Origin: an uncultured Nitrospiraceae bacterium
GTDB taxonomy: Bacteria > Nitrospirota > Nitrospiria > Nitrospirales > Nitrospiraceae
Length of the DNA: 64,000 nucleotides
Direction of reading: 5' to 3'
Assembly (NCBI GenBank): GCA_963706325.1
Contig: CAVPLT010000002.1
Coordinates: 64,001 to 128,000, forward strand
Below are positions 39,712 to 54,789 of this stretch, one piece after another. Both the position numbers and the translations under genes were made by a program. Below the pieces are notes generated by a model that had not been told where the DNA came from, searched no databases, and worked only from the letters and a program-made list of their open reading frames with translations. How positions within the stretch are numbered: position 1 is the first letter of the stretch; the number at the start of each line of letters is the position of its first letter.

Positions 39712-41144
39712 TTAGTACATCCAAAACAAGAAACTGGAAAGTGCGGTTACAGTCACGGTTACAACTAGCGTGTTGAGCGAGCAAGCGGCGTCAGGTATGT
39801 ATGCATAACTGTTGAAATTTGGCGGAGGGGGCGAGATTTGAACTCGCGGATAGGTTACCCCATCTCCGGTTTTCAAGACCGGCACGTTCGGCCACTCCGT
39901 CACCCCTCCAGTAGGTTTTTCTTCTAAGTAGTCAGTAGGTCGTGCAGATGCTCTCGTGAGCCGCCTTTCGTCAGGTTGCGGCTGGGTTGCGTTTTGGACC
40001 TTTTCTTCGTGCGTTTTCTCCGTTCTCTCTTGTGGGTCATCGAGCTGATGGACGTGATGTCGATGATCCCCCTGAAAGAGGTGGGAGTATATATCGAGCG
40101 TGATGCTAATGCTACCGTGCCCGAGCTGTTGTTGGATGTATTTGGGATTGGCTCCCTGCTGAATGAGCAGCGATGCAAAGGTGTGCCGTAAGTCATGGAA
40201 GCGGACATGTCGCAATCCGGCCGCCGTCAGGCAGGCCTGAAGGCGTTGCGCACGAGTTCATTACTCATCCGTTGGTGGGTGGGCCCGATGAAGATCCAAG
40301 GCGCTAGCGGGTCCCCCTTCATGGCCGCCTCGAGGGTCCGCGTCTCCTTCAACCGCTGGAGGACCTGGGCCAGTTGCGGGGACATATCCACGCGGCGGAT
40401 CTTGTGGGTCTTGGTTGTGGTGATTTGTCGGCGCACGATCGCCCGTCGCACTTCAATGAACTGGCCGCGAAAATCGAGATCACCCCACTGCAAGCCGAGC
40501 AGTTCTCCCTGGCGCATCCCGGTTCGCACCGCACAGAGGAAAAGGGGATAGAGCAGAGGAGCCGTGTGCTGCGCCTGGTGGAGGACCGTCCGCACATCCT
40601 CGGCTGTTAAGGGGTCAATGTGAGCGTCGGTCGATTCGCGAGACCGCAGCGACCGGCCCATATTCGACACAGGGTTGGCCGTCACGATGCCATCATCAAT
40701 GGCATGCTGGTAGGCTTCTTTCAGCGGCGTCAGGATGTTGTGAATGGTCCGCTTCTTCTTGCCCTGGACGAGCCACTCGGCAATGAGCCGCTTGATATCC
40801 GTGCGAGTCACTTCATGGAGGCGTCGCGTACCGAGTTCAGGAATGATGTGATGCTCGAGCACGATGCGATAGCCTGAGGCCGTAGAGGGTTTGCAATGCG
40901 CCTCCGCATAGACCCTCAGCCAGTCTGTGAGATAGGCCGCAACTGTAGGAATCGCGCCGTCTTTCGTGGCTAAGGTGATCGCTTCTCCACTCTGTTCCGC
41001 CCATTTCAGCTTAGCCGCGAGCTTGGCGGCAAACGCCTTTGCAAGGGCTTTATCCTTCCCGAAGAATTTCGCCTTGCGCTGCCCGTTCCAGTCCGTGAGC
41101 ACATACCACCCTTTGCCTGGTCGTTCCCGTACTTTTACACCCAT
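39712..41144 (-). CDS. int: Tyrosine integrase, one-base frameshift near 40240; C-terminal frame reads through att and the tRNA
   Basis: TGMRQGELLGLQWGD, TKTHK, then RFHDLRHTFAS...QLGHGSISITLDIYSH in the adjacent frame. Confidence 0.9.
39820..39909 (-). tRNA. tRNA-Ser(TGA), reconstituted at the element junction
   Basis: GGAGGGGTGACGGAGTGG; CCGGT-CTTGAAA-ACCGG; long variable arm; GTTCAAATC; GCCA end. Confidence 0.96.
39869..39910. repeat. att core, left copy (5' half of tRNA-Ser TGA)
   Basis: GTTTTCAAGACCGGCACGTTCGGCCACTCCGTCACCCCTCCA, identical to 58477-58518. Confidence 0.95.
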
Positions 41145-41149
41145 GGTGG

Positions 41150-41365
41150 TTAGTCTCCTCTCCGGCTGGGGCGGTTCGGTTGTTCGTCTCTCATAAGATC
41201 ACAGACGGTCACACCCAACGCGGTCGCTAATCGTTTCAGCGTCGATAGTGAGGGGTCAGCTTTGCCTCGTTCGACATGGGAGAGGAAGGTCTGAGACATC
41301 TTGGCCTTGAGTGCCAGGGCGTCTTGCGAGAACCCTTTTTTGAGTCGGATCGCTTTCAGCAGCAT
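41150..41365 (-). CDS. Xre-family HTH regulator
   Basis: LKAIRLKKGFSQDALA...SHVERGKADPSLSTLKRLATALGV. Confidence 0.9.
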   Translation of the reverse strand: MLLKAIRLKKGFSQDALALKAKMSQTFLSHVERGKADPSLSTLKRLATALGVTVCDLMRDEQPNRPSRRGD

Positions 41366-41399
41366 ACTGTAACGAGCATGGTTAGTATGAGGGGGAAAG

Positions 41400-41651
41400 T
41401 CAAACAGAGAGTTCGGCCACGACGGAATCCACGAGTCGGTCCAGTTCGCCCGGTTGAGTGGCCACGCGAAAGCGAGTCATCCAGGCATCGAACTCATTGG
41501 TCTTCTCTAAGACTTTGCCGCCAATGCGATAGAATGGGAGGGCACAGTTCCGATCTGTCAGCCGATCGCGCAGCCATCCGACCGAGCAAGAAGAATAGAC
41601 CGCCAAGGTCTTGAGATCGAGGTAGGCGGGTGGTGGAGTGGATGGGTGCAC
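41400..41651 (-). CDS. Excisionase-like winged-HTH protein
   Basis: YLDLKTLAVY...LPFYRIGGKVL...EFDAWM. Confidence 0.7.
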   Translation of the reverse strand: MHPSTPPPAYLDLKTLAVYSSCSVGWLRDRLTDRNCALPFYRIGGKVLEKTNEFDAWMTRFRVATQPGELDRLVDSVVAELSV

Positions 41652-41663
41652 GTCAGGTCTCAG

Positions 41664-41993
41664 TTAGAAGCCGGTTATATCCTTAGGCGTCTTGCGATGC
41701 TCGATGGCTGCTGGGGCATCAATGACCGTCGCCTGGCTCGCCGGACGCTTTGGGTCGCGTTGAATAATGACGTTGATCGTTGCGTCAGTGGTGTTTTTGA
41801 CCTCGACTGGAATTAATCTGCTCGCGATCTTGTAAAACTCGGTCCGATTTTTCTTGGCCCACTCCGTGAACGCCTCATGTCCGCCAGCTTCGTTGTAGGC
41901 AATCTGGACGGCATCTCGAAACGTGCCCGTTAATCTGTTGGCCACACCCACTTTGCGTCCCCCTGTCTTGGCTCGTCCCCGTTGAAATGGCAT
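41664..41993 (-). CDS. Putative terminase small subunit
   Basis: KTGGRKVGVANRLT N-terminus, GG...WAKKNRTEFYKIASRLIPVEV pattern typical of small phage TerS proteins. Confidence 0.6.
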   Translation of the reverse strand: MPFQRGRAKTGGRKVGVANRLTGTFRDAVQIAYNEAGGHEAFTEWAKKNRTEFYKIASRLIPVEVKNTTDATINVIIQRDPKRPASQATVIDAPAAIEHRKTPKDITGF

Positions 41994-42009
41994 TCTTTTT
42001 CCCTCCGGT

Positions 42010-42267
42010 TCAGAACGTGCGAACCGCTGTGACGTATTTGGTATTCACGGCCGCCCATCCGTCGGGGAGGGTGAGAAACGCCCAGACCGTGCCGTCTTCC
42101 TCGTGGTGGATGGCATCAACCTCCGCTGGACCTCGCAGCTTCCCATCATTCCCTAGCCAGGTGATTTGCCGGACAGGTGCCTTTTGTTCGTGGGGCTGTT
42201 CCACACTCAGGTTCTCTTGTTGCTTCCTGGCGGCTTCGACTTGCCGGATAATGTCGAGATATCTCAT
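42010..42267 (-). CDS. Hypothetical protein
   Basis: GGAGGAAGGA RBS; MRYLDIIRQV. Confidence 0.55.
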   Translation of the reverse strand: MRYLDIIRQVEAARKQQENLSVEQPHEQKAPVRQITWLGNDGKLRGPAEVDAIHHEEDGTVWAFLTLPDGWAAVNTKYVTAVRTF

Positions 42268-42288
42268 GTCCTTCCTCCCGCTTGGCTT

Positions 42289-42359
42289 ACGAATTAAACG
42301 AAAGAAACGAAATAACTGCCTTGTCGGCGGAGTTAATTCGTTAAATTCGTTTCTTTCGT
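42289..42359. repeat. Two inverted triads of 9-bp repeats (putative replication origin)
   Basis: ACGAATTAA-ACGAAAGAA-ACGAAATAA facing TTAATTCGT-TAAATTCGT-TTCTTTCGT. Confidence 0.7.
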
Positions 42360-43733
42360 TCCACGATGCCACACCGTCTTGTGCCGTCCTCCACCCTCAT
42401 TGGTCTCTGTCACGGGATGGGCCAGCCCCGCCCGAGTCAACATGGCCTTAGCTTGGGCGAGTCGAGCCGCCGACACGTTGCGGGAGAACAGAGCCGAAAC
42501 GCTGGTATCGTCCAAGCTGCCATGCGCCTCTATGGCGCGTAAGATCGTATCCGCGTGAGGATCGCCGGTGTTGTCCCCCAAAATGTAGCGGGTCGAGGCC
42601 TCGGCATAGCTCCAGAGCGCACAGGCGGCAGAGAGGTGCACGGACTCAATGACGGCTTGCCCATCGAGGACCGCATAGAGGGCTGCGAGGCGCATGACCT
42701 GAGACTCCGCACGCCCGAGGAGATCGCCGGCCATGCCAGGACGTTCTTGGGAGAGCGCATGATACAGAGCGGCCCAGACAGGCTGGGCGTCCGAGGCGAG
42801 CGTCAACGGCGACATGCTGCGGCCGGCTTGGAGCCGTGCCCGAAGTCGTCGGCTCAGCGCGTCCATTTCAGCAGGATGGGGACTTGAGGGAAAGGGCAGC
42901 TCGTTGGAGGACCGTTTCACCGCAATCCACACAAATCGATTCCCGAAGCCGTTACAGGCTTCCGTACTCGTCAGATTTCTCAAAAGTTCATTCTGCGTCA
43001 CGTGCCCGACGATCCCCACGTGAGGGGCGGTGGCCCGGATCCGGTTGCCCTTCGTCATGGGCGCGAGGTCTTTGCCGTCCCAGGCGTCCTGCAACACGCC
43101 CGAGAGACTGTTCCCGTCCCGCTCCATGACGCGGAGCACCACGCCAAATTCGGTTTGTACGAGAAAGAGCCGCTTGTCTTCGATGCCGCTATCTACGAGA
43201 ACTCGTTGCGTCTCTCCGGTTAACTTTCCGTTCTGTCTGATCGGCTCTTCTTTGTATTGAGGATCTCGGACCGAGAAGGCCAAGCCTTCACCGCTGGAGA
43301 GCGTGCCGCGACATTCGCCACGGGTCCACACCGGGTCTGCGTGTTGGCACAGACTTTCAATGCGCTTGTCCGCCGTGCCCTTCCGGCTCTTGCTGGATTT
43401 CCCCACGAGCACCGGCCAAAACAGAAGCGGATGATACCCGCCGTCCAAGATGAGGTGCGGCGCGCGGCCCAACATGACGCCGACCTCCGACAGCAATGAG
43501 ACGAGCAGCGCCACAGGGGCGGCTTCAGTATGTGGCTCGTACAGCCGGACCACCTCGCCCGCCAGTCCATGCAGCGCTTCATCGTTCAGGGTGGGCCAGG
43601 TGTCCGCTATCGGCGCCGGCTCTGCGGACTCAGGGACTAACGGGGCTATCCGGTCAAGAAAGTGATCATGAACAAGCTCCGTGTCAGTCTTAGTGAATCG
43701 CTCGACTTGCTGGAGAAATGCCGTGTCACGCAT
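42333..43733 (-). CDS. DUF3987/YfjI-like replication P-loop protein
   Basis: LVGKSSKSRKGT, LSSGEGL, LQDAWDG, NGFGNRF, RLAALYA. Confidence 0.8.
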   Translation of the reverse strand: MRDTAFLQQVERFTKTDTELVHDHFLDRIAPLVPESAEPAPIADTWPTLNDEALHGLAGEVVRLYEPHTEAAPVALLVSLLSEVGVMLGRAPHLILDGGYHPLLFWPVLVGKSSKSRKGTADKRIESLCQHADPVWTRGECRGTLSSGEGLAFSVRDPQYKEEPIRQNGKLTGETQRVLVDSGIEDKRLFLVQTEFGVVLRVMERDGNSLSGVLQDAWDGKDLAPMTKGNRIRATAPHVGIVGHVTQNELLRNLTSTEACNGFGNRFVWIAVKRSSNELPFPSSPHPAEMDALSRRLRARLQAGRSMSPLTLASDAQPVWAALYHALSQERPGMAGDLLGRAESQVMRLAALYAVLDGQAVIESVHLSAACALWSYAEASTRYILGDNTGDPHADTILRAIEAHGSLDDTSVSALFSRNVSAARLAQAKAMLTRAGLAHPVTETNEGGGRHKTVWHRGTKETNLTN

Positions 43734-44182
43734 GTTGCAGACCCTCCGCTTCCAATAGTTGCCACGCACGGCCGACGGGATCGAGCGCCGCGGCGAGTCC
43801 ATCATCGGTCCAGGCTTCAATGGAAAGTCCATGGGCCGCTCGCACCAGGGAGTCCGCTTCTCGGAGCACATCCGCCTGCCGGCCGTTCGCCTTCTCAATT
43901 GCCTCCCGTGCCGCTTTCCTGTGCCCGCTACTCCCACACGCGACGACGCTCACCCGAATCCCATTCGCCGCTATCAAAGAAGAGGTCTGAAATTCTGAGG
44001 CCGAGCGTGCGCGTAATGTCTTCAGCGCTGCAGCCAGCCCAACACTTGAGTAAGACACCGCGATCTCCTTCTCTCACGCTGAGGCTGGGGGAGCGGTCAT
44101 CATGGGAGGGACATCGCGCGAGCCAACTTCGAGGGGTCTGCTTCGCACCGTCCACGAGCTGAACGAAGGCATTGATGGTCAT
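43726..44182 (-). pseudogene. Primase-type Zn-finger protein, interrupted by stop/frameshift near 43928
   Basis: ARCPSHDDRSPSLSV...LLKCWAGC...LGLRISDLF; downstream frame overlaps DUF3987 start (ATGCGTGA). Confidence 0.75.
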
Positions 44183-44385
44183 CGTGTGGTGACCCTGTTC
44201 TCTTGCAAGTCCAGCAAGCCAGCGATGGCTCGGTGTGCCTGTCGAATTAACTCGCGCTGCTCCGGAGTCCACGTCTGTTGTCGCCACACTCGCTCCAACC
44301 ATTCGACAATCAAACGAAGGGCTCGCGAGACAGTGAGAGAGAAGGGTGTCTTGTGAATGGATCGCAACTCACGTATTGTCCTCAT
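44179..44385 (-). CDS. Hypothetical protein
   Basis: Translationally coupled (ATGA) to the Zn-finger gene. Confidence 0.5.
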   Translation of the reverse strand: MRTIRELRSIHKTPFSLTVSRALRLIVEWLERVWRQQTWTPEQRELIRQAHRAIAGLLDLQENRVTTR

Positions 44386-44474
44386 TGTTCAGGGGGTCCT
44401 TTCTATTTGAGCCGGTCGAGGAGGTAATGACTCCTCGCCGGCTTTCCCTTTGTTAGACCGTGTCATCGCTCGTG

Positions 44475-44678
44475 TTATCCCACCGTCGTGCGATTTCTGA
44501 GCGCCTGACGAACTTCCGTGAGTGAGAACCGCACGCCTCGGCCTTTGACTCCCACTTTGTAGGCTGGGACTCGGCCAGCCTTCGCCATTTTGTAGAAAGT
44601 CGCTTTTGGCAAGCCTAGTGCAGCCGCGCATGCATCTGCGTCGATTAGAGGCGCTTCGGCAGTTGATGTAGATTCCAT
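44475..44678 (-). CDS. AlpA/excisionase-like HTH protein
   Basis: LIDADACAAALGLPKATFYKMAKAGRVPAYKVG...VRFSLTEV. Confidence 0.8.
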   Translation of the reverse strand: MESTSTAEAPLIDADACAAALGLPKATFYKMAKAGRVPAYKVGVKGRGVRFSLTEVRQALRNRTTVG

Positions 44679-44803
44679 GATCTCTCCCCGGTGTTGTGCG
44701 CTTCACCTCGAAGCACACTGATGCTCCAGGAATACCACCAGGAAGAAATGGGGAATACTGCCGTTATGGGATGAAGGTAATTAAAGAAGACAGCTGGGAG
44801 ACT

Positions 44804-45439
44804 TTATTTGCGACCGGTGGGCCTGCCGCGCTTTTTCTTTTGATCGCGCGGATCAATAGCACGGAGCCAGAGTTGAAGGGTTCTATCACTGTATTTGTCT
44901 ACGAATGGTTTCAGTCCGGGTGAATTGATGATCTCCTTGAATGTTGCCGTGGGATTCAGGGCCCATTCTTCCTTGCCAATTTGTTGCACGCTGGGTTTGT
45001 CGACAAAATCCGGCCGCTTCCTGACGGCGACTTTGGCATGGTAACCTTTTACGGCTACATCGCCAGCCAACAGACGCAGGCCTTCCTCCTCACCAAGCTG
45101 AACGGCTTTAGAAATCTCCACAAGTGTTTCGAGGCCATCGTCATAAGTCGGCATCTTTTGTTTCACCAGAACCATGACGAGAGCTGCGTACTTGTATTCA
45201 ACTTGATACTCAAATTGTTTCCGGAGGTCTTCGTAGGTCATCCGACGTTCTATTGCCAAATGAAAGAGCTTGGTTCTTGCCGAATAGAATCTGCTCATGC
45301 ATGGTTTTTGGATCCAGTCAGGCGGAATCCCCTTGATGCCGTCATAAGGCGCCTCTAGCCATGTCTCTAATTCAGGGGCCGAAGACGGAGGAGACGGTTC
45401 TTGAACGGCCGGTGTTGTGAAAGTCGGCTTCTTCGGCAT
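44804..45439 (-). CDS. Hypothetical protein with C-terminal HTH-like region and basic GRP tail
   Basis: YSDRTLQLWL...KKKRGRP; AGGAG RBS. Confidence 0.55.
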   Translation of the reverse strand: MPKKPTFTTPAVQEPSPPSSAPELETWLEAPYDGIKGIPPDWIQKPCMSRFYSARTKLFHLAIERRMTYEDLRKQFEYQVEYKYAALVMVLVKQKMPTYDDGLETLVEISKAVQLGEEEGLRLLAGDVAVKGYHAKVAVRKRPDFVDKPSVQQIGKEEWALNPTATFKEIINSPGLKPFVDKYSDRTLQLWLRAIDPRDQKKKRGRPTGRK

Positions 45440-45554
45440 GTCCACTCCTGCGTGTGGGCCTGGTGAGAGGAGGGCAGTACCAGCTCCAGGAAAGCTGGCC
45501 GATCGGGTGATCAAGCCCGATCGTTACTGCCCGTGTGAGTGTAGCGTTAGAGAA

Positions 45555-45923
45555 TCACGATGTGAAGTGCCGCGTTGCGGTGAATAAGGCCGCAACGAGC
45601 TCAGGATTCTCCTCGCGCCACTGTTGCCAACTTTCATCGGTGAGCTTCCACGCAAGCCATTCCGGATGGTCTGGCGAGGGCGTAAACGGCTGACGATTCG
45701 CCTTGCAGCGTGCGCATCGTTGTGGCCGTCGCGCGATCATAAAGAGATGGCTCCCGCAAAAGTACAGTCCGCATCCGTACTCGCCGCCGTATGGTTGTCC
45801 ACCGCACACATAGGCCAACCCGCGATCGATCTCTTTCCCGCACCCTGGGTGGTCACAGTAGACGGGTACTCCATGCCCGATATCGCGCTTCCAATTCTCG
45901 TCATACCCTAATGACCAGCCCAT
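45555..45923 (-). CDS. Cys-rich phage-type hypothetical protein
   Basis: MGWSLGYDENWKRDIG...CDHPGC...IDRGLAYVCGG...GCGLYFC. Confidence 0.7.
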   Translation of the reverse strand: MGWSLGYDENWKRDIGHGVPVYCDHPGCGKEIDRGLAYVCGGQPYGGEYGCGLYFCGSHLFMIARRPQRCARCKANRQPFTPSPDHPEWLAWKLTDESWQQWREENPELVAALFTATRHFTS

Positions 45924-46061
45924 GACGTGTCCTCCTCCATGAACCCCTCAACCCGGCCATGCTTCCCTCACCTCGCGGGAATGGTGGACGGTCATCTGAG
46001 CTGGTGCTGAGGGTACTGGTGCCGGTGGCATTCGTATCAACTCGTTCAGACATCACCCACA

Positions 46062-47056
46062 TCAGCTCCACGCCATGGTTTCGGCCAAGCGATACTCTTG
46101 AGAGACAGGTTCCGCGTCCGTCTCTGCTGGCTTCAAGGCCCACATCCAGTCCGCATAGGCCTGAATGATTCACTGATTTTCTCGAAATTCAACCGCGTAT
46201 AGATGGCCACCGGCCTGGAGTCGTAGTGGTTCAGTACGGCTTTTGCCGTTAAGTCATCGGCTTTGATCTCGTTATACAAGTAGGTGGCCAGCGTGCGGCG
46301 GAAATCGAGCAGCCACAGGTCGGGCATGTTCAGTTCAATCCTGAGACGGTCCCACACCTTCCTCGCCGAGCCTTCACGGAGACTATGTCCGTAGTGTCCT
46401 GGAAAGACAAAGTCGGCGTTTCTTGGGAGCGCACGAATGTAGTGAAGCGCCTGGGTAGGAATCTGAACAAATTGAGGCCGTTTATTTTTGGTGAATCGCT
46501 TCAGCCACTTCCCGTTGTCATCGATCGCATCCCAGCGCATCTCGCACAATTCCTTGATCCGTCCAGGTACCAAAATGCGGCAGGCAAAAAACGCCTGATA
46601 CTTGGGAGACAGGTACTCCAGGGCTCCGAGGAGAGCCCTGATTTCGTTCCGGTCCATGACCCGTTCACGCGGGATGTAGTCGTGCTTATTCACCCTCCAC
46701 GCGGGATTGTGTCCCTCGTAGATCGGGCGTCGGGTGAGTGGGTCAATGCGATCACTGGCCCAGCTGTAGGCCTGCTTGATGAGCCCGAGAGTCTTATTTG
46801 CCTGTGATGGCACGGCCTCCAGGGATTGCTTGAGCAGGAGCACGTCATACCGAGTGATAGCACTCGCGAGACGATCCCGCCATTTGGGAGTATCGAAATA
46901 GAGTTTATAAGTGTATTCGTATGCCCTACCACTCGAACGGGAGCCGAGATGCTTGAGGTATCCCTGCATGAGCGCACCGAACGTAATCCCGTTGTTGATC
47001 TGTTCCGGCACGGCCGGTAGGGGCGTGGGTGGTTGGTCCGTCAGAACATTCATCAT
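46062..47056 (-). CDS. Second tyrosine recombinase, frameshift near 46170
   Basis: PGRIKELCEMRW, TKN, LDFRRTLAT, VLNH, IYTR; tail IIQAYADWMW in adjacent frame. Confidence 0.8.
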
Positions 47057-47122
47057 CACTTGTCCTTTCCATGAGCTGTGCGCGGGGAAGCAAAGGCCTC
47101 CCCCGCATGGGTCCTGGATGGG

Positions 47123-47398
47123 CTACCCCTTCTTCCGCTTCAGCTGCAGTTCCAGTCGTCGCACCTCTGTCGCGCTAAGCTTCGTGATGTCGTGTCGCGC
47201 GATGTAGGCCCACGGCCGCTGCTTGCGTTCCCGCTTCAGATCTCGGACGGCTTCGCGCAGATCATCGGTGATCGTGCCGCATGACTCGAAGGGCCCGTAG
47301 TCCGAGTGGTCTGTGCATACTTCATATTGAATTTTTGTGAGCGTGTTTCCCTCCGCAATCACACGGGGTGAGGCTTTCTTAGTGGCGTTCTTCTTCAT
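47123..47398 (-). CDS. Hypothetical protein
   Basis: AGGACAGGAA RBS; MKKNATKK. Confidence 0.5.
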   Translation of the reverse strand: MKKNATKKASPRVIAEGNTLTKIQYEVCTDHSDYGPFESCGTITDDLREAVRDLKRERKQRPWAYIARHDITKLSATEVRRLELQLKRKKG

Positions 47399-47588
47399 GG
47401 TTTCCTGTCCTTTCTGTCTGTTTGGTGCCTCTTCCCGCGATGGACAACAGGTGTTCCAGCCGACTGAGCGAGATGCTGGTACCGAGTTTGGACTGTAACC
47501 GAAGGCCACGACCGCCGCGCCCGTTGCGCATGCGCCCGTGGTCATTCGCGGGGGAGCGAAATTGTTTAAAGTTCATCGGGTCGGCTCC

Positions 47589-47903
47589 CTATTCGTTGAC
47601 TACCTTAATCTTTGGATCCAGGTGCTGGAGAATCACCATCACCTCATCGAGGTTCGTCCTGATTTGGTCGAGGTTCTCCGCGAACAATTCCATTGTCGCT
47701 CTCATGTCGTGGCGGTCGGTCTTTGCACTTTCTGAAGCAGCGGGTGTGGCACTCGCGATCATGCGCGCAATGCTTTCCAGCTGGGTCACTTTGTCAAACG
47801 AGTGGGCGGTCATGTCGTGCGCCCATGTCAGCGTGCCATGTTTCGATTTCCAATCATCCATAATTCCCTTGACGAGTGTGGGCTTCGTGGTGGTTTTTGG
47901 CAT
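47589..47903 (-). CDS. Hypothetical protein
   Basis: AAGGAGG RBS; helical C-terminus. Confidence 0.55.
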   Translation of the reverse strand: MPKTTTKPTLVKGIMDDWKSKHGTLTWAHDMTAHSFDKVTQLESIARMIASATPAASESAKTDRHDMRATMELFAENLDQIRTNLDEVMVILQHLDPKIKVVNE

Positions 47904-47948
47904 GATGCCTCCTTGTGACTGTGCGGGTTGCTGCCGGGGCTTTTTCGC

Positions 47949-48110
47949 TCACTTCCCTTTCTGCCCTTTCATGGGCGGGCTGAAATGTTGCGTGAGTAAC
48001 CGCCGTATCAGCCCGCTGGCCGTGGTGCCTTCGGCGCGCATGGCGCTGAGCTTGCTCTTTATTGACTTTGGAATTTGGATTTTCAGTCGTTCCATGGGCT
48101 CCGGTTTCAT
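47949..48110 (-). CDS. Ribbon-helix-helix (CopG/Arc-like) protein
   Basis: RLKIQIP alternating strand, helix, TTASGLIRRLL; AAGGAG RBS. Confidence 0.65.
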   Translation of the reverse strand: MKPEPMERLKIQIPKSIKSKLSAMRAEGTTASGLIRRLLTQHFSPPMKGQKGK

Positions 48111-48137
48111 GCGGTCGTCTCCTTTCATTAAGCTACT

Positions 48138-48212
48138 ATGGGACCATGGTATCATGGGACCTCAATGGGTCAAGTGTGTCCAATTGACACCCATGAAGCG
48201 TTTCGCTACCTT
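48138..48212. promoter_or_regulatory. Divergent sigma70-like promoters overlapped by 8-bp repeats
   Basis: Rightward TTGACA(48184)-17-TACCTT; leftward TTGACC(48173)-16-TACCAT; ATGGGACC ATGGTATC ATGGGACC tca ATGGGTCA. Confidence 0.55.
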
Positions 48213-48220
48213 TGCGCCGC

Positions 48221-48394
48221 ATGGAACAAGAAGACACAAAGAGGCAACAGATGGGTGTGCGCATAGCAGCAAACCTCATCGTCGAATCGAAGGTTTTAGC
48301 AGCTCGTCAGAAACGTAGATTGAACGAGCTAGTCGAGGAGGCCCTGCAGGATCTCTTGAAGAAGTACGCGAGTGCGAAGAAGAAATCAGGTTAG
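48221..48394 (+). CDS. Ribbon-helix-helix protein
   Basis: QQMGVRI strand, KVLAARQKRRLNELVEEALQDLLKKY. Confidence 0.75.
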   Translation: MEQEDTKRQQMGVRIAANLIVESKVLAARQKRRLNELVEEALQDLLKKYASAKKKSG

Positions 48395-48408
48395 TCGGAG
48401 GGACCGCT

Positions 48409-48765
48409 ATGTCACTTTCATCTGCACCACTCAACCACTGTCCTGCCCCACTCGTGCCAATCATCTTGGAGGTTATTGCGGCGCACAATTCAGCCATGCC
48501 GAGTGCGGGCGAAGGCATCCACGAAAAAAAGATTGAGATGGCCGGCAGCGAATACGATCAGTTGCTGGTGCTCTATTACGAATCCTTTGGGAGCCCCTTC
48601 TCCTGCAATGATCCACAAAAAGGAGTGACGTACACCCTGTCTTTCGTCGACAAACCGGCCGTCGTGCACGAAACCATCACCAACGCGGCTCGCCACTATA
48701 CCGCTCGTGTGAAACTGATGAAATTGCCGCCGCTCCCGGATCTGGAAGACCAACCTAGTCCATAG
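48409..48765 (+). CDS. Hypothetical protein
   Basis: GGAGG RBS; follows the RHH gene. Confidence 0.5.
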   Translation: MSLSSAPLNHCPAPLVPIILEVIAAHNSAMPSAGEGIHEKKIEMAGSEYDQLLVLYYESFGSPFSCNDPQKGVTYTLSFVDKPAVVHETITNAARHYTARVKLMKLPPLPDLEDQPSP

Positions 48766-48794
48766 CTCAATAGGACATTTCATAAGGAGAGCCG

Positions 48795-49043
48795 ATGAAC
48801 CACCCCATGCCAGGTATTATGTGGGCGCTTGTTCGACAGCAAATCCAGGTGGAAGCCATCATTAGCGCGCTGGCCGTACAACAGCCGTCACTTCCTCAAC
48901 AGATCATGGCGCAGCTTGAGACCTTACGAACAAGTGGTCGTGTAAAGGAAATCATCGCCGAGGTCTACGAGCAGGTGAATCAGGCGGAAGACGGGGCGTG
49001 GCTCAGCCGACACGGGATACGCGACCCGGCCACGGGCAAATGA
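48795..49043 (+). CDS. Hypothetical protein
   Basis: TAAGGAG RBS. Confidence 0.5.
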   Translation: MNHPMPGIMWALVRQQIQVEAIISALAVQQPSLPQQIMAQLETLRTSGRVKEIIAEVYEQVNQAEDGAWLSRHGIRDPATGK

Positions 49044-49189
49044 GGCAAGATCAAGCCCCGCTCTTCTCTGGAGTAATTCCATGACCGTTCCGACCGGTAA
49101 GAAGTGCCCACGCTGTGGCAGAATCATGAAGCAGAGCGCTGGCATGCAGCCTGGCGCGATTCAATTATTTTTATTACCTGGAGATTGAG

Positions 49190-49654
49190 ATGAACATGTC
49201 ACTGCCTCTCAGCCGGGCTGGAGTGGCCCAAACGGCATTCGGGATATGGAGAAGTGGTCCGACTGTGGCGTGGGTCCTTGTTATAATGATTTGGGGGTTG
49301 CCGCTAGCTGGATGCACGAATCCACCAACCCGGCCTGTGCTTGGGGCGTTTACTGGAGATGAGCGCGAGATAACCTATCTCGACCAGGTGCGACGGCGCG
49401 ACTCCTCTGCGCTCCAGACTCCGGAGTCGGTCCACAATGCCCTATCCTTCTATCGCGACATGAAGTTCCAGCAACGCGCCCTTTTTCTTCGGTTCCACCG
49501 ACAGTACCCCGAGGCGACACCGCAGGAAATGGCGACCCTGGTGCAGGATGCCCTACCACGGGAGACGCGTTCTGACCTTCCGAACATTCCACCACCAGCC
49601 TTCCAGTGCTTTAGCGTGAACGCAGGGAAAACCCAATCCCTTTCCTGTAATTGA
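49190..49654 (+). CDS. Putative lipoprotein
   Basis: Hydrophobic segment followed by LAGC lipobox. Confidence 0.55.
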   Translation: MNMSLPLSRAGVAQTAFGIWRSGPTVAWVLVIMIWGLPLAGCTNPPTRPVLGAFTGDEREITYLDQVRRRDSSALQTPESVHNALSFYRDMKFQQRALFLRFHRQYPEATPQEMATLVQDALPRETRSDLPNIPPPAFQCFSVNAGKTQSLSCN

Positions 49655-49847
49655 TCAGTATTAATGGCCGCAATGCGTTTCAAATGTTGTCATGAAGCTG
49701 CGCACTGGCACTCAGCCATGGAGCGGGATCTGGACCTGGGTGCGCTGCAAAAATGAAACGGTGAAGAAGCGGGAGTAGTCTCGCCGGCACAAAGCTATTT
49801 CAGTCGTCGGTGCTCATGCTCCTCACAAGAAAATTGAGAAGGCGCGA

Positions 49848-50069
49848 ATGTTCCCTCCAAGCTTTGATCTCCATGTTGGTTTGCCCTCAATGGCGGTGGG
49901 CGTCGCATTGTACTTTCTTCCCACAATCATCGCGTGGGTGCGGGCGCATTACAATCGTGTCGCGATCTTGATGCTGAACCTCCTACTGGGTTGGACCGTC
50001 GTGGGATGGATCGTATCTCTAGTCTGGTCCTTTACTAATCCCCCACCGAGCACCCATCACCAGGCATGA
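49848..50069 (+). CDS. Superinfection immunity protein (T4 Imm-like)
   Basis: LYFLPTIIA...ILMLNLLLGWTVVGWIVSLVWS. Confidence 0.88.
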   Translation: MFPPSFDLHVGLPSMAVGVALYFLPTIIAWVRAHYNRVAILMLNLLLGWTVVGWIVSLVWSFTNPPPSTHHQA

Positions 50070-50509
50070 CGCTCTTCAAACTCGGCTTGCTCTTATTCTG
50101 GACGCTCTGGCTTCTGATCGTGTTTCTCACCAATCTCTTTGAGTGGCTCAAGGTGCTGCGGATCGTCCCGCCGTACTGGAAATTCGCCTCTTCAAATTAT
50201 CAGGCCATCGTCCAAGCGACTGGCATCTATCAGGCACCTGAGTGGGTGGCCAAGGTTTTGTTCCTCGGCGTGCTCATCTGGCAGTGTGGAACGCTTCTCG
50301 CGTTCGGACGTGCGCTCCTGTCCATGTGGTGGTATGGAATGTGGCTCTTGGGCCCCGTCATGGAGGCCTTCGCGGCGAGCTTAGGACTTCTGGCCGCCTT
50401 TATCCTAGCCGATGAGATCTTCAAGCAGTATGACCTTGAGCGGGCACACCTCCTGTTGTTCATCGCTCAATTACTGACGGTGCTCTCGATCTATGTGTTG
50501 CCTGCCTAA
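50066..50509 (+). CDS. Four-TM membrane protein
   Basis: Four hydrophobic helices; coupled to Imm gene by ATGA overlap. Confidence 0.7.
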   Translation: MTLFKLGLLLFWTLWLLIVFLTNLFEWLKVLRIVPPYWKFASSNYQAIVQATGIYQAPEWVAKVLFLGVLIWQCGTLLAFGRALLSMWWYGMWLLGPVMEAFAASLGLLAAFILADEIFKQYDLERAHLLLFIAQLLTVLSIYVLPA

Positions 50510-50750
50510 GCGTTGACCAGGATTGCTTGGATTCGAGTACGGTGACACAAGTCATTCAGCCTCCTGCAGTCTCCACGTATTGGGAAGTCCACCCGCTGGC
50601 ACCTTCTGCGCGTACAGCATTGCCGTCCTAACTCGTAATGGCTCTTCCAGCGAAGGCATACCGGCTCCGATCCCCCACGAATGTCACCACTGGGCAAGTC
50701 CTAGGGGCTTGCCTACTGCCCTGGACTGTTTGGACGGCGCACCATAGCGC

Positions 50751-51206
50751 ATGACTAACCTACAAAAATTACCCCATATCTCTCTGGCCGAGGTGCAGGC
50801 CAGCTCCGAAGCCGAGGGACATCCTCTTCTCCTGGCGTTTGACGACGGGACGGGGCCTGGAGGGACGTACTGGAAGGCGGGTGATCCAGGGGAACAGACG
50901 ATTACCGTGACGTTCCGGGAGCCCTGCACGCTCGCGCAGATCACCATGGAAGTGGAAGAGCGGGAAGTCGAACGCACTCAGGAGGTGCAGCTCGCGTTGT
51001 CGGTTGACGGAGGACAAACGTATCGAGAACTCGTCAGTCAGGAGTTCAACTTCAGCCCGCAGGGTGCGACGTGGGAACAAGAAACCTGGCAACCCCCCAA
51101 GAAGACCGAGTCACCAATCTTCGATTAGTTATCAAGCCCGATAAAGGCGGACCGAATACCATGCGACGCTGACCTCTCTGAGTTTGTGGCAGGCGGCCTG
51201 ACATGA
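50751..51206 (+). pseudogene. Discoidin/galactose-binding-fold (APC10-like) protein, frameshifted 3' end
   Basis: SSEAEGHP...WKAGDPGEQTI...QEFNFSPQGAT; VTNLRLVIKPDKGG in next frame. Confidence 0.65.
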
Positions 51207-51297
51207 CATTCCCTCTCTTCGATTGCCTTTACGCGAATCCCTTCTCACCCTGGTGATTAGCCTCTACCATTCTTACAACAAATATACGCAAAAACCC

Positions 51298-51326
51298 TAT
51301 ACATTTATGACCGTTACCTATATAAT
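51298..51326 (+). promoter_or_regulatory. Sigma70-like promoter upstream of the ejection-protein-like gene
   Basis: TATACA-17 bp-TATAAT in an AT-rich tract. Confidence 0.5.
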
Positions 51327-51460
51327 CGGATCCATGGTTTTCACCCCTTCACCCGGCAGCGACACTGCCATAACGGAGCCTGTTATGGATGCGGTCGATG
51401 CCTGAGCTCTCTAAGCCATCCCGCAGGCGCCACACCTTAATTAGAAAGGTAGGTGCCCGC

Positions 51461-52336
51461 ATGTGCAGCCCCTCACCACCAGCCACGCCCGACTTCAAAG
51501 GCGCTGCCCAAGAGCAGGGAACCGCAAATATTGAGGCGGCGAGGGCTCAAGGGAAATTAAACAACCCCAACGTCTACAGCCCTTACGGCTCGCAGACCGT
51601 CTCCTATGACGGTGATCAGCCGACCATCACGCAATCCTTCTCGCCTGAACAGCAGGCCATCTACGACCAGGGCAATGCGACGAAGCTCCAACTCAGCCAA
51701 CTGAGCGGGCAAGGGGCGCAAGCCCTGCAAGGCGTGGTCGGCAAGCAAGTGGATTTCGGCGGGGCTCCAGCTGCCCCTGGCGATTACTCGTCCATGCGCA
51801 ACCAGACCATCGACGCCATGATGGCGCGTCCAAAAGAGGACTACGCCAGGGCCACCGATCAAGCGCAATCCGACCTCGTAGCTGCAGGCATCCGCCCCGG
51901 CACCAAAGCCTACGACGACAAGATGAATCTGCTCCAACGCGGGTTGAACGACGCAGGCACGCAGGCCGCTGTGAATTCCGGCGTGCTGACCTCGCAGGCC
52001 TATCAGATGGATATGGACCGCCGCAAGCAGGCCATTACCGAACAGCTGGCACAACGTCAAGTGCCGCTCAACGAAATCACGGCGCTGATGTCAGGATCGC
52101 AAGTCTCGAACCCCTTCTCCACACCAGGCTTTGCCCAGAACGCGCAAGTCGGCGCCGCGCCGGTGTTTGCCGCGCAACAGGCTACCAGCCAATGGGATCG
52201 AGACAATAACAACGCCGACCGCGCGGCAATGGCTGGCCTCCAGACCGGCATGTTCCAATTGGGTGCGGCTGGGATCAGTGCGATGGGTGGTGGCGGCGGA
52301 GGCGGGAAGGGCGGGACCACGAACAACTACTATTAG
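51461..52336 (+). CDS. Podophage internal virion / DNA ejection protein-like
   Basis: PSPPATPDFKGAAQEQGTANIEAAR...NPNVYSPYGSQT...SPEQQAIYD...GIRPGTKAY...QRQVPLNEITALMSGSQV; A/Q/G-rich. Confidence 0.65.
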   Translation: MCSPSPPATPDFKGAAQEQGTANIEAARAQGKLNNPNVYSPYGSQTVSYDGDQPTITQSFSPEQQAIYDQGNATKLQLSQLSGQGAQALQGVVGKQVDFGGAPAAPGDYSSMRNQTIDAMMARPKEDYARATDQAQSDLVAAGIRPGTKAYDDKMNLLQRGLNDAGTQAAVNSGVLTSQAYQMDMDRRKQAITEQLAQRQVPLNEITALMSGSQVSNPFSTPGFAQNAQVGAAPVFAAQQATSQWDRDNNNADRAAMAGLQTGMFQLGAAGISAMGGGGGGGKGGTTNNYY

Positions 52337-52423
52337 GCTTAAAACGACTACTCCCACCATCACAATTCTGCCTGGCCGCAGGGTCTCGGCCCGAGGCGTT
52401 TGGGAATAGCAAAAACGGCGGAC

Positions 52424-52843
52424 CTATGGTTCCGGAGTCTGAGTGGCCTTAACCGATGCCTCGGTGCATTCCGCCTCGATGAAGGCCGCCGTTGCATCGC
52501 GTCTCTCCCGAAGGGTTTGCTCGACTTCCGTGATTCCTTTATCCCGAAAATCCACAATCTCTCCATCTAGCACGGATAGGTTCGTGATGGATTGTCGGCA
52601 CTTACGGTCTGCCAAGGCCCGCAGATGTTGTTTCAGGATCGCATGTTGTTTGCTATGAGCGGTCTCGCGAACCGAGTTCATCCCGGCCGTGTCGCCCAAT
52701 GCCTTCGTAGCCTCCAATAACTCTTCCGGAATTGGAGTCTGATCAAAGACGGCCTTCAATTGTTCGACACTGTGAGCTCGCGCAGGAGGCGAATTGAACA
52801 GCAGGACACCTATGCATACATAGAAGAAGTAGTGCGCTCTCAT
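52424..52843 (-). CDS. Secreted hypothetical protein
   Basis: Signal peptide ending ARA; two Cys. Confidence 0.55.
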   Translation of the reverse strand: MRAHYFFYVCIGVLLFNSPPARAHSVEQLKAVFDQTPIPEELLEATKALGDTAGMNSVRETAHSKQHAILKQHLRALADRKCRQSITNLSVLDGEIVDFRDKGITEVEQTLRERRDATAAFIEAECTEASVKATQTPEP

Positions 52844-53564
52844 CGGTAGGCCGCCTTTCGTGTCGCGATCGCGGGTCGAGTATATAACATTTGGGTTCCT
52901 GTTCTACCTGACCCCGACTGTCCTGGTCCTGGACGTCAGACGGTAGCACCCTGGTGGCCCATCGCCCCCTTTACCTAGTCGGTGCTCTTTGAGGGCCGTG
53001 AGTCACCGCCCTCCACTCCCACGGCGGTACCGGATGCGGTTCAGCCCATTACATTCGATTCACCATCGGGACCTGGAATCCAACTCCATCAGCCTAGGCA
53101 TCGCAGTCTAGGCCGTGCCTCCTGGGATGGACCACGATCTTTTCTATTACCAGGTTTTTCACTAGTACCGCACCCCTTCCATGGGTGATCCAATGAAACC
53201 ACCTGAGTCTGTCGGACAACCGAGGGGAGACATTTAACACACTCTTCACTGAGCTCTGCCATGTGTAGGAGTTGTGACGTTGGGCAATGCTCGAGGCAAA
53301 GCTGATCCCCGATAAAAGTGCCTACTATTATCGCACGTGCTGATTGATGCCGGCTGTCTCACCGGGGTTGCCTCGCAATCGCGGTCTCGGGTGGGTGAGA
53401 TATAGCCATCTCTTCCAATTCCTACCCAAGCCTTTTTGAAAGGATCCTTATTCGGGAGGGGAACGACTTCAGGGACTCGTACCCCCGCCACCCCCGTTCC
53501 GCCCAGTTCGGGCAGCACACTTTCGAACTGCTGAATGTTCCGAGAACGAATCAGAGGCTATTCT

Positions 53565-54428: not shown

Positions 54429-54789
54429 GGCACGATATCTCCGAGAGCGGCGATGGCTACAAACTGCAGTGACAGTCGCCGCCTGTGTCCCGGTACTCGC
54501 CGGTGGCCTGGGAATGATCGCCGGGACGGCCATGCTGTCGAACACCACCGGGATCTCTCTTGATAATCATGTCCGTTATTTATCCGGTGTGTTATTCGCG
54601 ATGGGGCTGAGCTTTTTGGCCATCACCCCTAATATTGAGATACACACGGTGCCCATGCGGCTCTTAACGTTTTTAGTCGTGGTTGGCGGAGTCGCCCGTC
54701 TGGCGAGTGCTGTCTTTGTGGGGATGCCTTCCAGTTCGATGCTCCTTGCCATTGTTATGGAGCTGGTAGTGACACCCTTGTTGTGTTGA
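54418..54789 (+). CDS. DUF4345-like membrane protein
   Basis: LDNHVRYLSG, GGVARL, ELVVTPLL. Confidence 0.75.
   Translation: MVTKARYLRERRWLQTAVTVAACVPVLAGGLGMIAGTAMLSNTTGISLDNHVRYLSGVLFAMGLSFLAITPNIEIHTVPMRLLTFLVVVGGVARLASAVFVGMPSSSMLLAIVMELVVTPLLC

What the first reader, a model, noticed from the sequence alone, without database searches (positions are those of the whole stretch)
39712..40215. att site and an entire tRNA lie inside the integrase ORF, so integration swaps the Int C-terminus
Seen: after the catalytic ...LDIYSH the int frame has no stop before att. It reads KPTGGVTEWPNVPVLKT through the 42-bp core, then 51 more residues across the rest of tRNA-Ser(TGA) to a stop at 39712. Joining the ends in silico (excised circle) gives ...GTC TTG AAA ACT GAT TCC CAC TCC TCG TAA, i.e. 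...VLKT-DSHSS* with the stop at 58458-58460. Known: att-within-int occurs in Myxococcus phage Mx8 and archaeal SSV1-type integrases. Inference: the complete tRNA is co-oriented and upstream of the int stop codon. RNase P maturation of the tRNA would cut the int mRNA into a non-stop message, leading to tmRNA tagging and degradation. That would silence Int only in the integrated state, while int transcription supplies the host tRNA. Caveat: this window has many indels, and one between 39911 and 40080 could create the read-through.
Basis: partly seen in the sequence, partly recalled or inferred. Interest (0 to 1): 0.85.

Follow-up and report, generated by a model that had tools for sequence, protein, structure and literature searches.

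The report
Integrase gene reads through tRNA-Ser
A mobile element in a Nitrospira genome sits in the front half of the only tRNA-Ser(UGA) gene, so its integrase reading frame runs through the attachment site and the whole tRNA; this is real and shared by relatives, but the proposed RNA-cutting switch is untested.

Summary
tRNA-Ser(TGA) lies at 39820-39909 (-). An exact 42-nt repeat (39869-39910 = 58477-58518) bounds an 18.6-kb island next to serS. The integrase C-terminal ORF (39712-40215) stays open through the core and the whole tRNA. Joining the ends in silico gives ...VLKT-DSHSS*.

The read-through is not an indel artefact. A second integrase lineage (about 52% identical) beside tRNA-Ser(TGA) in other Nitrospira reads through in the same frame. 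Of 79 distinct related loci with a tRNA at the int 3' end, 50 have the ORF entering the tRNA. So att-inside-int is a family trait. The unusual part is the reversed, 5'-half orientation, which puts the tRNA in sense.

All four members of its lineage are damaged.

Two deletion remnants keep only the int 3' 580-670 nt plus the tRNA. The tail is predicted disordered, with relaxed dN/dS and lowered dS. This suggests that it doubles as an attP arm or tRNA promoter and leader, and that int's own promoter is not needed for the tRNA.

The RNase P/tmRNA switch is logically possible but has no evidence here. I rate this a new variant of known kinds (Mx8-type att-in-int; rare 5'-distal tRNA integration).

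The parts
39820..39909 (-). tRNA-Ser(TGA). It is intact and is the only copy with this anticodon in the genome. Its 5' half is supplied by the element and its 3' half by the host.
   Evidence: ARAGORN on the window. ARAGORN on the whole genome finds 50 tRNAs, one of them tRNA-Ser(tga).
39869..39910 (-). attR copy of the 42-nt att core (one base plus tRNA nucleotides 1-41)
   Evidence: Exact direct repeat. Identity stops exactly at the 3' edge.
58477..58518 (-). attL copy of the 42-nt core: an orphan tRNA 5' half, 20 nt after the serS stop
39911..58476 (.). Integrative element of about 18.6 kb. It carries int, HTH regulators, primase/helicase-like genes, a second tyrosine recombinase and cargo genes.
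   Evidence: Bounded by the repeat. Pfam and PHROG hits.
39712..40215 (-). Integrase C-terminal fragment ORF (HDLRH...LDIYSH, then a 57-codon tail, the att core, the rest of the tRNA and 35 host-encoded codons)
   Evidence: PF00589 profile positions 126-169, E 4.6e-12.
40227..41144 (-). Integrase N-terminal fragment ORF (305 aa), ending prematurely at TGA 40227-40229
   Evidence: PF00589, PF14659 and PF22022 hits.
40240..40241 (-). Frameshift site: TT here, TTT in the closest relative L054 (a 1-nt deletion, or an assembly error)
   Evidence: Pairwise DNA alignment. Protein alignment shows the homologues continue ...FYACLEAAGLRRVRFHDLRH.
39911..40081 (-). Int tail coding region (57 codons after YSH). 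Predicted disordered, with relaxed dN/dS and lowered dS. Probably doubles as an attP arm and/or tRNA leader.
   Evidence: AF2 on homologue L013 gives pLDDT below 50 for residues 373-451. dN/dS is 0.3-0.48 against 0.06 in the body, and dS is 0.19-0.21 against 0.68-0.75.
40086..40115 (-). Candidate embedded promoter GTAGCA-N18-TATACT, laid over the codons GSISITLDIYS. The -10 hexamer starts 182 nt before the tRNA. This is a hypothesis only.
   Evidence: Present at -180 to -186 in all 9 tRNA-Ser loci of both lineages scanned. TATACT over the Tyr codon occurs in only one other sequence in the family listing, L008. It uses the rare codons ATA (5.3% of Ile) or GTA (7.6% of Val). It scores only 8 of 12 and was not found by the standard scan.
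58458..58460 (-). TAA that would end int in the excised (attP) form, 5 codons after the core
   Evidence: A stop at the same position in remnant G168 (DSSPS*).
58539..59864 (-). Host ORF (441 aa) that I read as serS from its C-terminal sequence, by recall; no family search was run on it. It lies directly upstream of the native tRNA-Ser.
   Evidence: ORF. Its C-terminal translation is followed by the tRNA 5' half. In 28 of 29 fetched loci of the genus this gene end is followed by the tRNA uninterrupted.
41150..41365 (-). HTH_3 regulator (71 aa), co-oriented upstream of int
   Evidence: PF01381, E 2.7e-16
41400..41651 (-). Small ORF with a weak HTH_17 match (below cut-off); a possible excisionase-like protein
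   Evidence: PF12728, E 0.0073, 17 bits against a cut-off of 27
42333..44302 (-). Primase/helicase-like genes (534 aa plus a 124-aa CHC2 zinc-ribbon ORF)
   Evidence: PHROG DNA primase hits at E 1.4e-9 and 1.9e-14; the Pfam Zn_ribbon_DnaG match is below cut-off
46133..47059 (-). Second tyrosine recombinase (308 aa) inside the element
   Evidence: PF00589, E 1.3e-14; phrog_1, E 2.2e-34

Best explanation
The region is the attR junction of an 18.6-kb integrative element. The element inserted into the single-copy tRNA-Ser(UGA) gene that follows serS in a Nitrospira-type genome. Its tyrosine integrase belongs to a family, widespread in Nitrospiraceae, in which the 3' end of int overlaps attP. In most members the ORF runs into, or across, the target tRNA.

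This sub-lineage uses the rare reversed orientation. attP carries a copy of the tRNA's 5' half (nucleotides 1-41, with the crossover in the anticodon-loop region). After integration the working tRNA is therefore element 5' half plus host 3' half. It lies directly downstream of int on the same strand, inside the int frame.

The C-terminal exchange (...VLKT-DSHSS* in attP, ...VLKT plus 51 residues in attR) affects only a disordered, weakly constrained tail. I read it mainly as a by-product of int abutting att. The last ~170 nt of int are constrained at the DNA level and probably serve as an attP arm and/or as promoter and leader for the tRNA.

Integration cuts the tRNA off from its native upstream transcription, so the element must supply a promoter. 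That promoter most likely lies inside the retained int 3' ~600 nt. The window's copy is a decaying relic, because int is frameshifted.

Shown: the anatomy, family-wide conservation, reversed orientation, the frameshift, the single-copy tRNA and the remnants. Inferred: crossover position, promoter location, arm function and neutrality of the tail swap.
For: Anatomy.

Same-frame read-through in a second lineage with intact int: L013, L014, L015, L046, L048 and L050 are the six distinct loci. L045 and L047 read through as well but were merged with L014 when duplicates were removed.

Element origin of the attR 5' half: in G077 the attR copy has T at tRNA position 16 and the attL copy has C.

Family trait: 110 loci were examined, giving 103 distinct after removing duplicates. 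Of these, 79 have a tRNA at the int 3' end. The 79 split into 7 co-oriented with full overlap, 2 co-oriented with a stop before the tRNA, 6 convergent full, 37 convergent partial and 27 convergent with a stop before. In tRNA-His relatives of the same genus, a 23-32-nt core lies inside the ORF and the stop lies 35 nt beyond it.

Tail: AF2 gives pLDDT below 50 for residues 373-451 of L013 Int. Tail dN/dS is 0.30-0.48 against 0.06 in the body, while tail dS is 3-4 times lower than in the body. The integrated-form extensions differ completely between hosts, at 35 to 131 residues from the core.

The promoter must be element-borne. tRNA-Ser(tga) is 1 of 50 tRNAs. serS ends 20 nt before the native tRNA. 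The G168 and G171 remnants keep only int 3' 670 or 580 nt plus the tRNA.

Decay: all 4 members of the window's lineage have broken ints.
Against: No transcript data exist for this locus, so the promoter position and the neutrality of the tail swap are inferences.

The standard sigma-70 scan finds no promoter in 39500-42200. My candidate scores only 8 of 12, and its conservation could follow from amino-acid conservation and shared ancestry. Synonymous sites are unchanged at 0 of 4 positions inside the hexamers against 4 of 8 changed outside (counted by hand from the codon listing), roughly p = 0.14.

In both tRNA-Ser lineages the attP-form ORF stops within 5-11 codons of the core. In the remnant G168 the stop is at the same codon. 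That could mean the short attP tail is selected.

In Mx8 the equivalent swap does change integrase behaviour (PMC6070905 passage), so a functional effect cannot be dismissed.

The remnants could receive transcription by read-through from serS.
Confidence: 0.6

Rival explanations
1. In the integrated state, int has no stop codon before the tRNA. RNase P maturation of the tRNA cuts any int-tRNA co-transcript into a non-stop int mRNA. Ribosomes stall, tmRNA tags Int, and Int is degraded. After excision, the 5' half alone is not an RNase P substrate and int ends normally 5-11 codons after the core. Int is therefore stable only in the excised state.
For: The first stop is 108 nt beyond the tRNA 3' end in the window. 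It lies beyond the tRNA in all 7 distinct co-oriented read-through loci. The tRNA is the only UCA decoder, so it must be matured (UCA is 10% of Ser codons). A tmRNA gene is present at C1:547666-548019. The attP-form stops lie close to the core in both lineages. The logic follows from textbook RNase P and trans-translation biology (recalled).
Against: There are no RNA or protein data. The three runs found hold only tRNA pieces or relatives' fragments, and none bridges the junction. The ORF-into-att layout is commonest in convergent relatives, where this mechanism cannot work. In tRNA-His relatives the polarity is reversed, with the attP form 50-60 codons longer. Co-oriented L009 stops before its tRNA. 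The remnants show that the tRNA persists without the int 5' half. That favours an internal promoter whose transcripts would not encode Int at all. Excision also needs Int, so silencing it in the integrated state is not obviously advantageous. One literature search (RNase P + non-stop + tmRNA + integrase) listed one unrelated paper.
Confidence: 0.15
2. This is an Mx8-type isoform switch. The two C-termini give integrases with different activity or directionality, so the prophage form favours stable maintenance, independently of any RNA processing.
For: In Mx8, attP lies within int and integration creates a new 3' end that alters integrase behaviour (review passage read, PMC6070905). Here too the ORF crosses the core. 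The attP tails are short and their stop position is conserved within the window's lineage.
Against: The swapped part lies at the end of an ~80-residue tail with no predicted structure. Integrated-form extensions are unrelated host sequence of very different length. Tail dN/dS is relaxed. In Mx8 the replaced segment is much larger (recalled, not read here).
Confidence: 0.15
3. This is an artefact: the read-through comes from a sequencing or assembly indel in the tail, and the true gene stops before att.
For: The window's int does carry a 1-nt homopolymer deletion elsewhere. The closest relative L054 stops 127 nt before the tRNA.
Against: L054's early stop is caused by its own 4-nt duplication. 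Beyond it, its tail is open and in register with the tRNA frame. A lineage with intact int, distinct at six loci, reads through in the same frame.
Confidence: 0.03

Closest known systems
Myxococcus phage Mx8 integrase (attP inside int; intP becomes intX on integration)
   Same: A tyrosine integrase whose ORF contains the attP core, so integration gives the gene a new 3' end. The target is a tRNA gene region.
   Different: Here only the last 5 (or 11) codons are exchanged. The tRNA is entered in sense from its 5' end, so the whole tRNA lies in the ORF. No functional data exist. Mx8 details beyond the review passage are recalled.
Reversed-orientation (5'-distal) tRNA integration (Zhao & Williams 2002 and archaeal cases cited in PMC6563490)
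   Same: The element carries the 5' part of the tRNA gene and displaces the native 5' part and promoter. The passage read in PMC6563490 describes this as 'considerably less frequent' than 3' integration.
   Different: I could not read Zhao & Williams 2002 (not held). I therefore cannot say whether their element's int ORF also crosses the tRNA. Here two to three related bacterial lineages in Nitrospiraceae do this, nested among normally oriented relatives.
Mycobacteriophage BPs integration-dependent immunity
   Same: attP lies inside a gene, so integration changes the product's C-terminus and hence its stability through the ssrA/Clp route (abstract read, PMC4557955).
   Different: There the gene is the repressor and the viral form carries an encoded ssrA-like tag. 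Here the gene is int, neither predicted C-terminus (..DSHSS, ..PPKTA) looks like an ssrA tag, and tagging would have to arise from a non-stop mRNA.
SSV1-type archaeal integrases
   Same: attP lies within the int ORF.
   Different: SSV-type integration partitions int into two separated pieces. Here int stays in one piece and loses only its last codons.
tRNA-dependent lysogeny (Guerrero-Bustamante & Hatfull 2024)
   Same: Integration threatens an essential host tRNA, and the element must make good the loss (abstract read).
   Different: There the tRNA is not rebuilt and the phage brings its own tRNA gene. Here the tRNA is rebuilt exactly, but it depends on element-borne upstream sequence.

Membership tests
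Tyrosine recombinase / phage integrase (PF00589) | Catalytic domain with the R...HxxR...Y signature | tested here: met
   PF00589 hits on both fragments (E 5.2e-13 and 4.6e-12). AVRTGMR, HDLRH and LDIYSH align with invariant columns.
Tyrosine recombinase / phage integrase (PF00589) | One uninterrupted reading frame (a functional gene) | tested here: not met
   1-nt deletion at 40240-40241 relative to L054. The N-part ends at TGA 40227. Sequencing error is not excluded.
att-within-int elements (Mx8 type) | The attP core lies inside the int ORF, so integration replaces the 3' end of the gene | tested here: met
   The ORF crosses the 42-nt core. In-silico attP form ...VLKT-DSHSS* against the attR form with 51 further residues. 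The same holds in the L013 lineage and in tRNA-His relatives.
att-within-int elements (Mx8 type) | Prophage and phage forms of Int differ in activity | not testable with these tools
   Needs recombination assays.
Reversed-orientation tRNA integration | The element supplies the 5' portion of the tRNA, and the displaced fragment is a 5' fragment next to the native upstream gene | tested here: met
   The orphan 5' half lies 20 nt after serS. The intact tRNA lies at the int end. G077 shows a T/C difference between the attR and attL copies.
Reversed-orientation tRNA integration | The element provides the tRNA's promoter | tested here: inconclusive
   No consensus promoter. A conserved weak candidate at -182. 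Remnants keep the int 3' part. No transcript data.
SSV1-type integrase | Integration splits int into separated N and C parts at the two ends of the element | tested here: not met
   Only 5 codons lie at the far end.
Integration-dependent stability switch (BPs type) | One form ends in an encoded ssrA-like degradation tag | tested here: not met
   The predicted ends are DSHSS, PPKTA and host-derived variable tails. None resembles the genome's own tag ANQELALAA.
   Only the preconditions were checked: no stop before the tRNA and tmRNA present.

The most novel reading that the evidence does not exclude
In these reversed-orientation elements, int has no stop codon upstream of an essential, single-copy tRNA. 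Every int message made from the integrated element is then either cut by RNase P into a non-stop mRNA or carries an unprocessed tRNA. Maturation of the host's own tRNA would thus act as the sensor of the integrated state and keep Int low through trans-translation, while the excised circle makes a normally terminated, stable Int. A companion idea: the tRNA's replacement promoter is written into the catalytic-tyrosine codons of int (GTAGCA-N18-TATACT). The host then cannot delete the int 3' end without losing its only UCA decoder, which would explain why deletion remnants always retain it.
Probability: 0.15. Interest if true: 0.8.

Novelty: new variant of a known kind. Interest (0 to 1): 0.5.

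Why it matters
A complete, working tRNA gene in sense inside a protein-coding frame is an unusual arrangement for a bacterium. It forces a conflict between tRNA maturation and translation of the message, and that conflict can be tested directly with tagged constructs in ssrA or RNase P mutants.

The finding also gives a set of natural Nitrospira elements for study: intact ones in the L013 lineage and decayed ones in the window's lineage. They can be used to ask how an element that displaces a tRNA's promoter keeps an essential tRNA expressed, and whether that dependence preserves element remnants.

For annotation, it warns that integrase C-termini next to tRNA genes are partly host-encoded and change with integration state. 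The tRNA itself is one that nitrifier genomes depend on.

Tried and rejected
1. RNA evidence. The run search returned 3 runs with 5-6% of the sampled words. Laid on 39500-41400, they gave only tRNA pieces and short fragments from relatives. No contig bridged the int tail and the tRNA, and there were no ends or strand information. This is uninformative either way.

2. Raw-read check of the frameshift and tail.

3. Excised (attP) forms. The window's attL junction stretch and the L013-lineage junction stretch gave 0 hits in viral contigs. The L013-lineage stretch gave 10 metagenome hits, none preceded by the int tail. Eight have host-type upstream sequence, two have only 24-36 nt upstream and it is unlike the tail, and L133 is complex. 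The window's own junction was not searched in metagenomes.

4. Standard promoter and terminator scan of 39500-42200: 0 promoter-like sites, against 1.0 expected from shuffles.

5. 'Many indels in the window'. I tested 5 suspicious ORF pairs with Pfam and read nuoB in all frames. nuoB looks truncated rather than frameshifted. I could not confirm or refute a general indel problem.

6. Earlier notes of this scan: none for this genome.

7. Papers. Zhao & Williams 2002 and Williams 2002 are not held. Four paper calls (two searches, two read look-ups) failed on term format and were re-sent corrected.

8. The phylogeny is the quick tree only, because the careful search did not finish. Relations among the five groups of the subclade are unresolved.
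Full report
**What is there.**

ARAGORN places tRNA-Ser(tga) at 39820-39909 on the minus strand. An exact 42-nt direct repeat links 39869-39910 with 58477-58518. On the minus strand it consists of one base plus tRNA nucleotides 1-41, so it ends 4 nt after the anticodon. The distal copy lies 20 nt after the stop of a 441-aa ORF (58539-59864), whose C-terminus I read as seryl-tRNA synthetase by recall, since no family search was run on it.

The 18.6 kb between the repeats carry:
- a tyrosine integrase;
- an HTH_3 regulator;
- a weak HTH_17-like ORF;
- primase/helicase-like genes;
- a second tyrosine recombinase;
- an esterase;
- DUF4345;
- a PHROG 'virion structural' homologue.

In the genus, 37 of 39 genomes match the serS end plus the half tRNA. 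In 28 of 29 fetched loci, serS is followed by the tRNA uninterrupted. ARAGORN of these, and 2 run off the contig with the same continuation. One locus (G168) is occupied. The window therefore holds an integrative element in the 5' half of tRNA-Ser(UGA). The intact tRNA sits at the integrase end and an orphan 5' half sits beside serS.

ORF 39712..40215(-) reads ...LDIYSH, then 57 tail codons, the core (GGVTEWPNVPVLKT), the rest of the tRNA and 35 host codons. Joining the ends inside a script gives ...VLKT-DSHSS* with TAA at 58458-58460. All of this is confirmed.

The N-part is ORF 40227..41144 (305 aa), and the 167-aa ORF is the C-part in another frame. Against its closest relative (L054, 96% identical over the compared stretch of the C-part) the window lacks one T of a TTT run at 40240-40241. 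I could not check reads, so this may be a real pseudogene or an assembly error.

**Is the read-through an artefact?**

No. A protein search of 151 genomes of the family found relatives in 37. A profile scan of the species-genome collection confirmed 587 of 600 candidate stretches, and the best 80 were kept. Their record titles are mostly Nitrospira and Nitrospiraceae.

A second integrase lineage, about 52% identical in the N-part, sits co-oriented upstream of tRNA-Ser(tga). It comprises L013, L014, L015, L045-L048 and L050, with L178 partial. It is open through the whole tRNA in the same frame. Its hosts also carry a second copy of the 5' half, 25.6 kb away in G077 and 81 kb away in G046. In G077 the int-side copy has T where the far copy has C at tRNA position 16. 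This is expected if the int-side 5' half comes from the element. Its in-silico attP form ends ...VLKT-DLDPQEPPKTA*.

Two of the three sense frames of this tRNA are stop-free. Crossing the tRNA is therefore not remarkable in itself. What matters is that the 56-57 tail codons stay open in both lineages.

**Family context.**

I examined 110 loci (L007-L036 and L045-L124), which gave 103 distinct loci after merging identical tails:

| Orientation of tRNA relative to int | Where the int ORF ends | Loci |
|---|---|---|
| Co-oriented | ORF across the whole tRNA (all tRNA-Ser) | 7 |
| Co-oriented | Stop before the tRNA (L009 at tRNA-Cys; L054) | 2 |
| Convergent | ORF across the whole tRNA | 6 |
| Convergent | Partial overlap | 37 |
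| Convergent | Stop before the tRNA | 27 |
| No tRNA within 200 nt | – | 20 |
| No C-part hit | – | 1 |
| Ran off the contig | – | 3 |

So 50 of the 79 loci with a tRNA have the ORF entering it.

In three complete genomes of the window's genus, tRNA-His elements have a 23-32-nt core inside the ORF. The integrated form ends 35 nt past the core, and the in-silico attP form runs 50-60 codons further. att-inside-int is thus the family's normal design, and the direction of the length change is not consistent.

A quick maximum-likelihood tree (76 rows, careful search unfinished) puts five groups in one subclade with SH-aLRT 99: the two tRNA-Ser lineages, the tRNA-Cys locus, and two convergent groups (tRNA-Met and tRNA-Thr). 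The order inside the subclade is unresolved, and the co-oriented label needs at least two changes.

**State of the window's lineage.**

All four members are damaged:
- The window has the 1-nt deletion.
- L054 (the same sequence as G156) has a 4-nt duplication after GDH, which gives an early stop.
- G171 has a frameshift between YSH and ATQPQP.
- G168 has an indel just before the core.

G168 (3.1 kb between the cores) and G171 (about 5.4 kb) are deletion derivatives. They keep the island's left end and only the last 670 or 580 nt of int next to the tRNA. The half-tRNA part of the query matched no further place in either genome. I did not run a tRNA scan on them.

**What the tail is.**

An AlphaFold2 model of the L013 integrase, built on an 11-sequence alignment, has a mean pLDDT of 70. 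It is confident through the catalytic helix. A short helix follows at residues 364-373, and then pLDDT stays below 50 with no secondary structure for residues 373-451.

In three comparisons within the L013 lineage:

| Region | dN/dS | dS | Nucleotide identity |
|---|---|---|---|
| Body | 0.06 | 0.68-0.75 | 0.86-0.87 |
| Tail | 0.30-0.48 | 0.19-0.21 | 0.90-0.91 |

The window and L054 show the same direction: 0.40 in the tail against 0.06 in the catalytic part, with dS 0.48 against 0.84. The protein constraint is relaxed while the DNA is extra-conserved. I read this as DNA-level function in the last ~170 nt of int, either an attP arm or the tRNA's promoter and leader.

**How the tRNA is expressed.**

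tRNA-Ser(tga) is single-copy, 1 of 50 tRNAs, and UCA makes up 10% of Ser codons. Integration separates the tRNA from serS and from anything upstream, so the element must supply transcription.

The standard scan finds no sigma-70 consensus in 39500-42200. A relaxed scan finds one candidate, GTAGCA-N18-TATACT, with the -10 starting 180-186 nt before the tRNA. It is present in all 9 tRNA-Ser loci scanned from both lineages. It overlies the codons G-S-I-S/N-I-T-L-D-I/V-Y-S.

TATACT arises from ATA-TAC-TCC in one lineage and GTA-TAC-TCG in the other. In the family listing, only one sequence outside the tRNA-Ser lineages (L008) has it. ATA is 5.3% of Ile codons and GTA is 7.6% of Val codons in this genome. 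The same hexamer sits upstream of native tRNA-Ser genes in several metagenome loci.

The evidence is weak. The match is 8 of 12, the two lineages share ancestry, and my hand count of synonymous sites gives roughly p = 0.14. It does fit the remnants. I hold it as a hypothesis.

**The proposed RNase P/tmRNA switch.**

Its preconditions hold. There is no stop before the tRNA, the tRNA is essential and must be matured, and tmRNA is present with tag ANQELALAA. The logic is sound textbook biology (recalled).

Nothing here shows that it happens, and several results argue that the layout was not shaped for it. Convergent relatives share the layout. The polarity is reversed at tRNA-His. L009 stops before its tRNA. 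The tRNA survives loss of the int 5' half.

If the tRNA has an internal promoter, most tRNA precursors would not encode Int at all. Rare full-length int messages would still be non-stop once processed. I put the switch at about 0.15.

**Literature.**

- 5'-distal tRNA integration is described as 'considerably less frequent', citing Zhao & Williams 2002 and archaeal cases (passage read in PMC6563490).
- Mx8 has attP within int and gains a new 3' end on integration (passage read in PMC6070905).
- Mycobacteriophage BPs has attP inside its repressor gene, and one form carries an ssrA-like tag (abstract read, PMC4557955).
- tRNA-dependent lysogeny is described in PMC10865867 (abstract read).
- Zhao & Williams 2002 and Williams 2002 were not available.
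- One search for RNase P, non-stop, tmRNA and integrase together counted two papers and listed one, which is unrelated.

**Verdict.**

The anatomy is real and conserved. It is a new bacterial variant that combines two known oddities. This copy is a relic. The regulatory reading is open and testable.

Noticed in passing
window 46133-47059 (-): A second tyrosine recombinase (308 aa; PF00589 E 1.3e-14; phrog_1) lies inside the same 18.6-kb element. Its role (resolvase, nested element or inversion) is unknown.
   Followed up: no
L135/L138, L136/L142, L137/L143 (G120, G140, G055): In tRNA-His-targeting relatives, the in-silico attP form of int runs 50-60 codons past the core. These extensions are similar in three genomes (..SEQIVRESATSRNQ..). 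The excised-form tail might be a real, conserved coding extension.
   Followed up: partly
L174 (G168) and L175 (G171): Deletion derivatives of the window's element, 3.1 and about 5.4 kb, retain only the left end, some cargo (the region homologous to window 53599-54801, i.e. the esterase and DUF4345 genes, in G171) and the int 3' 580-670 nt beside the tRNA.
   Followed up: partly
L133 (metagenome contig, core at 1474-1514): Another integrase C-terminus (..ALDVYSHLFEEDPRHQ..) is open for 96 codons through a host-type tRNA leader into the tRNA-Ser core, which is followed by the L013-lineage left end. This may be a tandem or nested insertion.
   Followed up: no
window 29795-30620 (+): A nuoA-like ORF is followed by a nuoB-like ORF that matches only the first half of Oxidored_q6 and has no continuation in any frame. 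It looks like a truncated complex I remnant rather than a frameshift.
   Followed up: partly
window 25352-25933 (-) and 7681-8567 (+): Odd domain combinations appear here. One 193-aa ORF combines Ribosomal_S30AE with a cold-shock domain. An HHH_8 ORF overlaps a following ORF that carries only the DNA ligase C-terminal region.
   Followed up: no
whole genome G000: ARAGORN reports a tRNA-His with anticodon atg and a tRNA with a four-base anticodon (cccc) among the 50 tRNAs. Their positions were not examined.
   Followed up: no
L126, L128, L129, L134 (metagenome attL loci): In Nitrospira where tRNA-Ser is not behind serS, a conserved TTTACC-N18-TATACT motif lies some 70-95 nt upstream of the native tRNA-Ser. 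It is a likely native promoter that integration leaves pointing into the element's far end.
   Followed up: no
window 33763-34002 (-): tRNA-Ser(gct) and tRNA-Phe(gaa) lie 5.9 kb from the att site. The third, 76% 'copy' in the repeat family is just the tRNA-Ser paralogue.
   Followed up: yes
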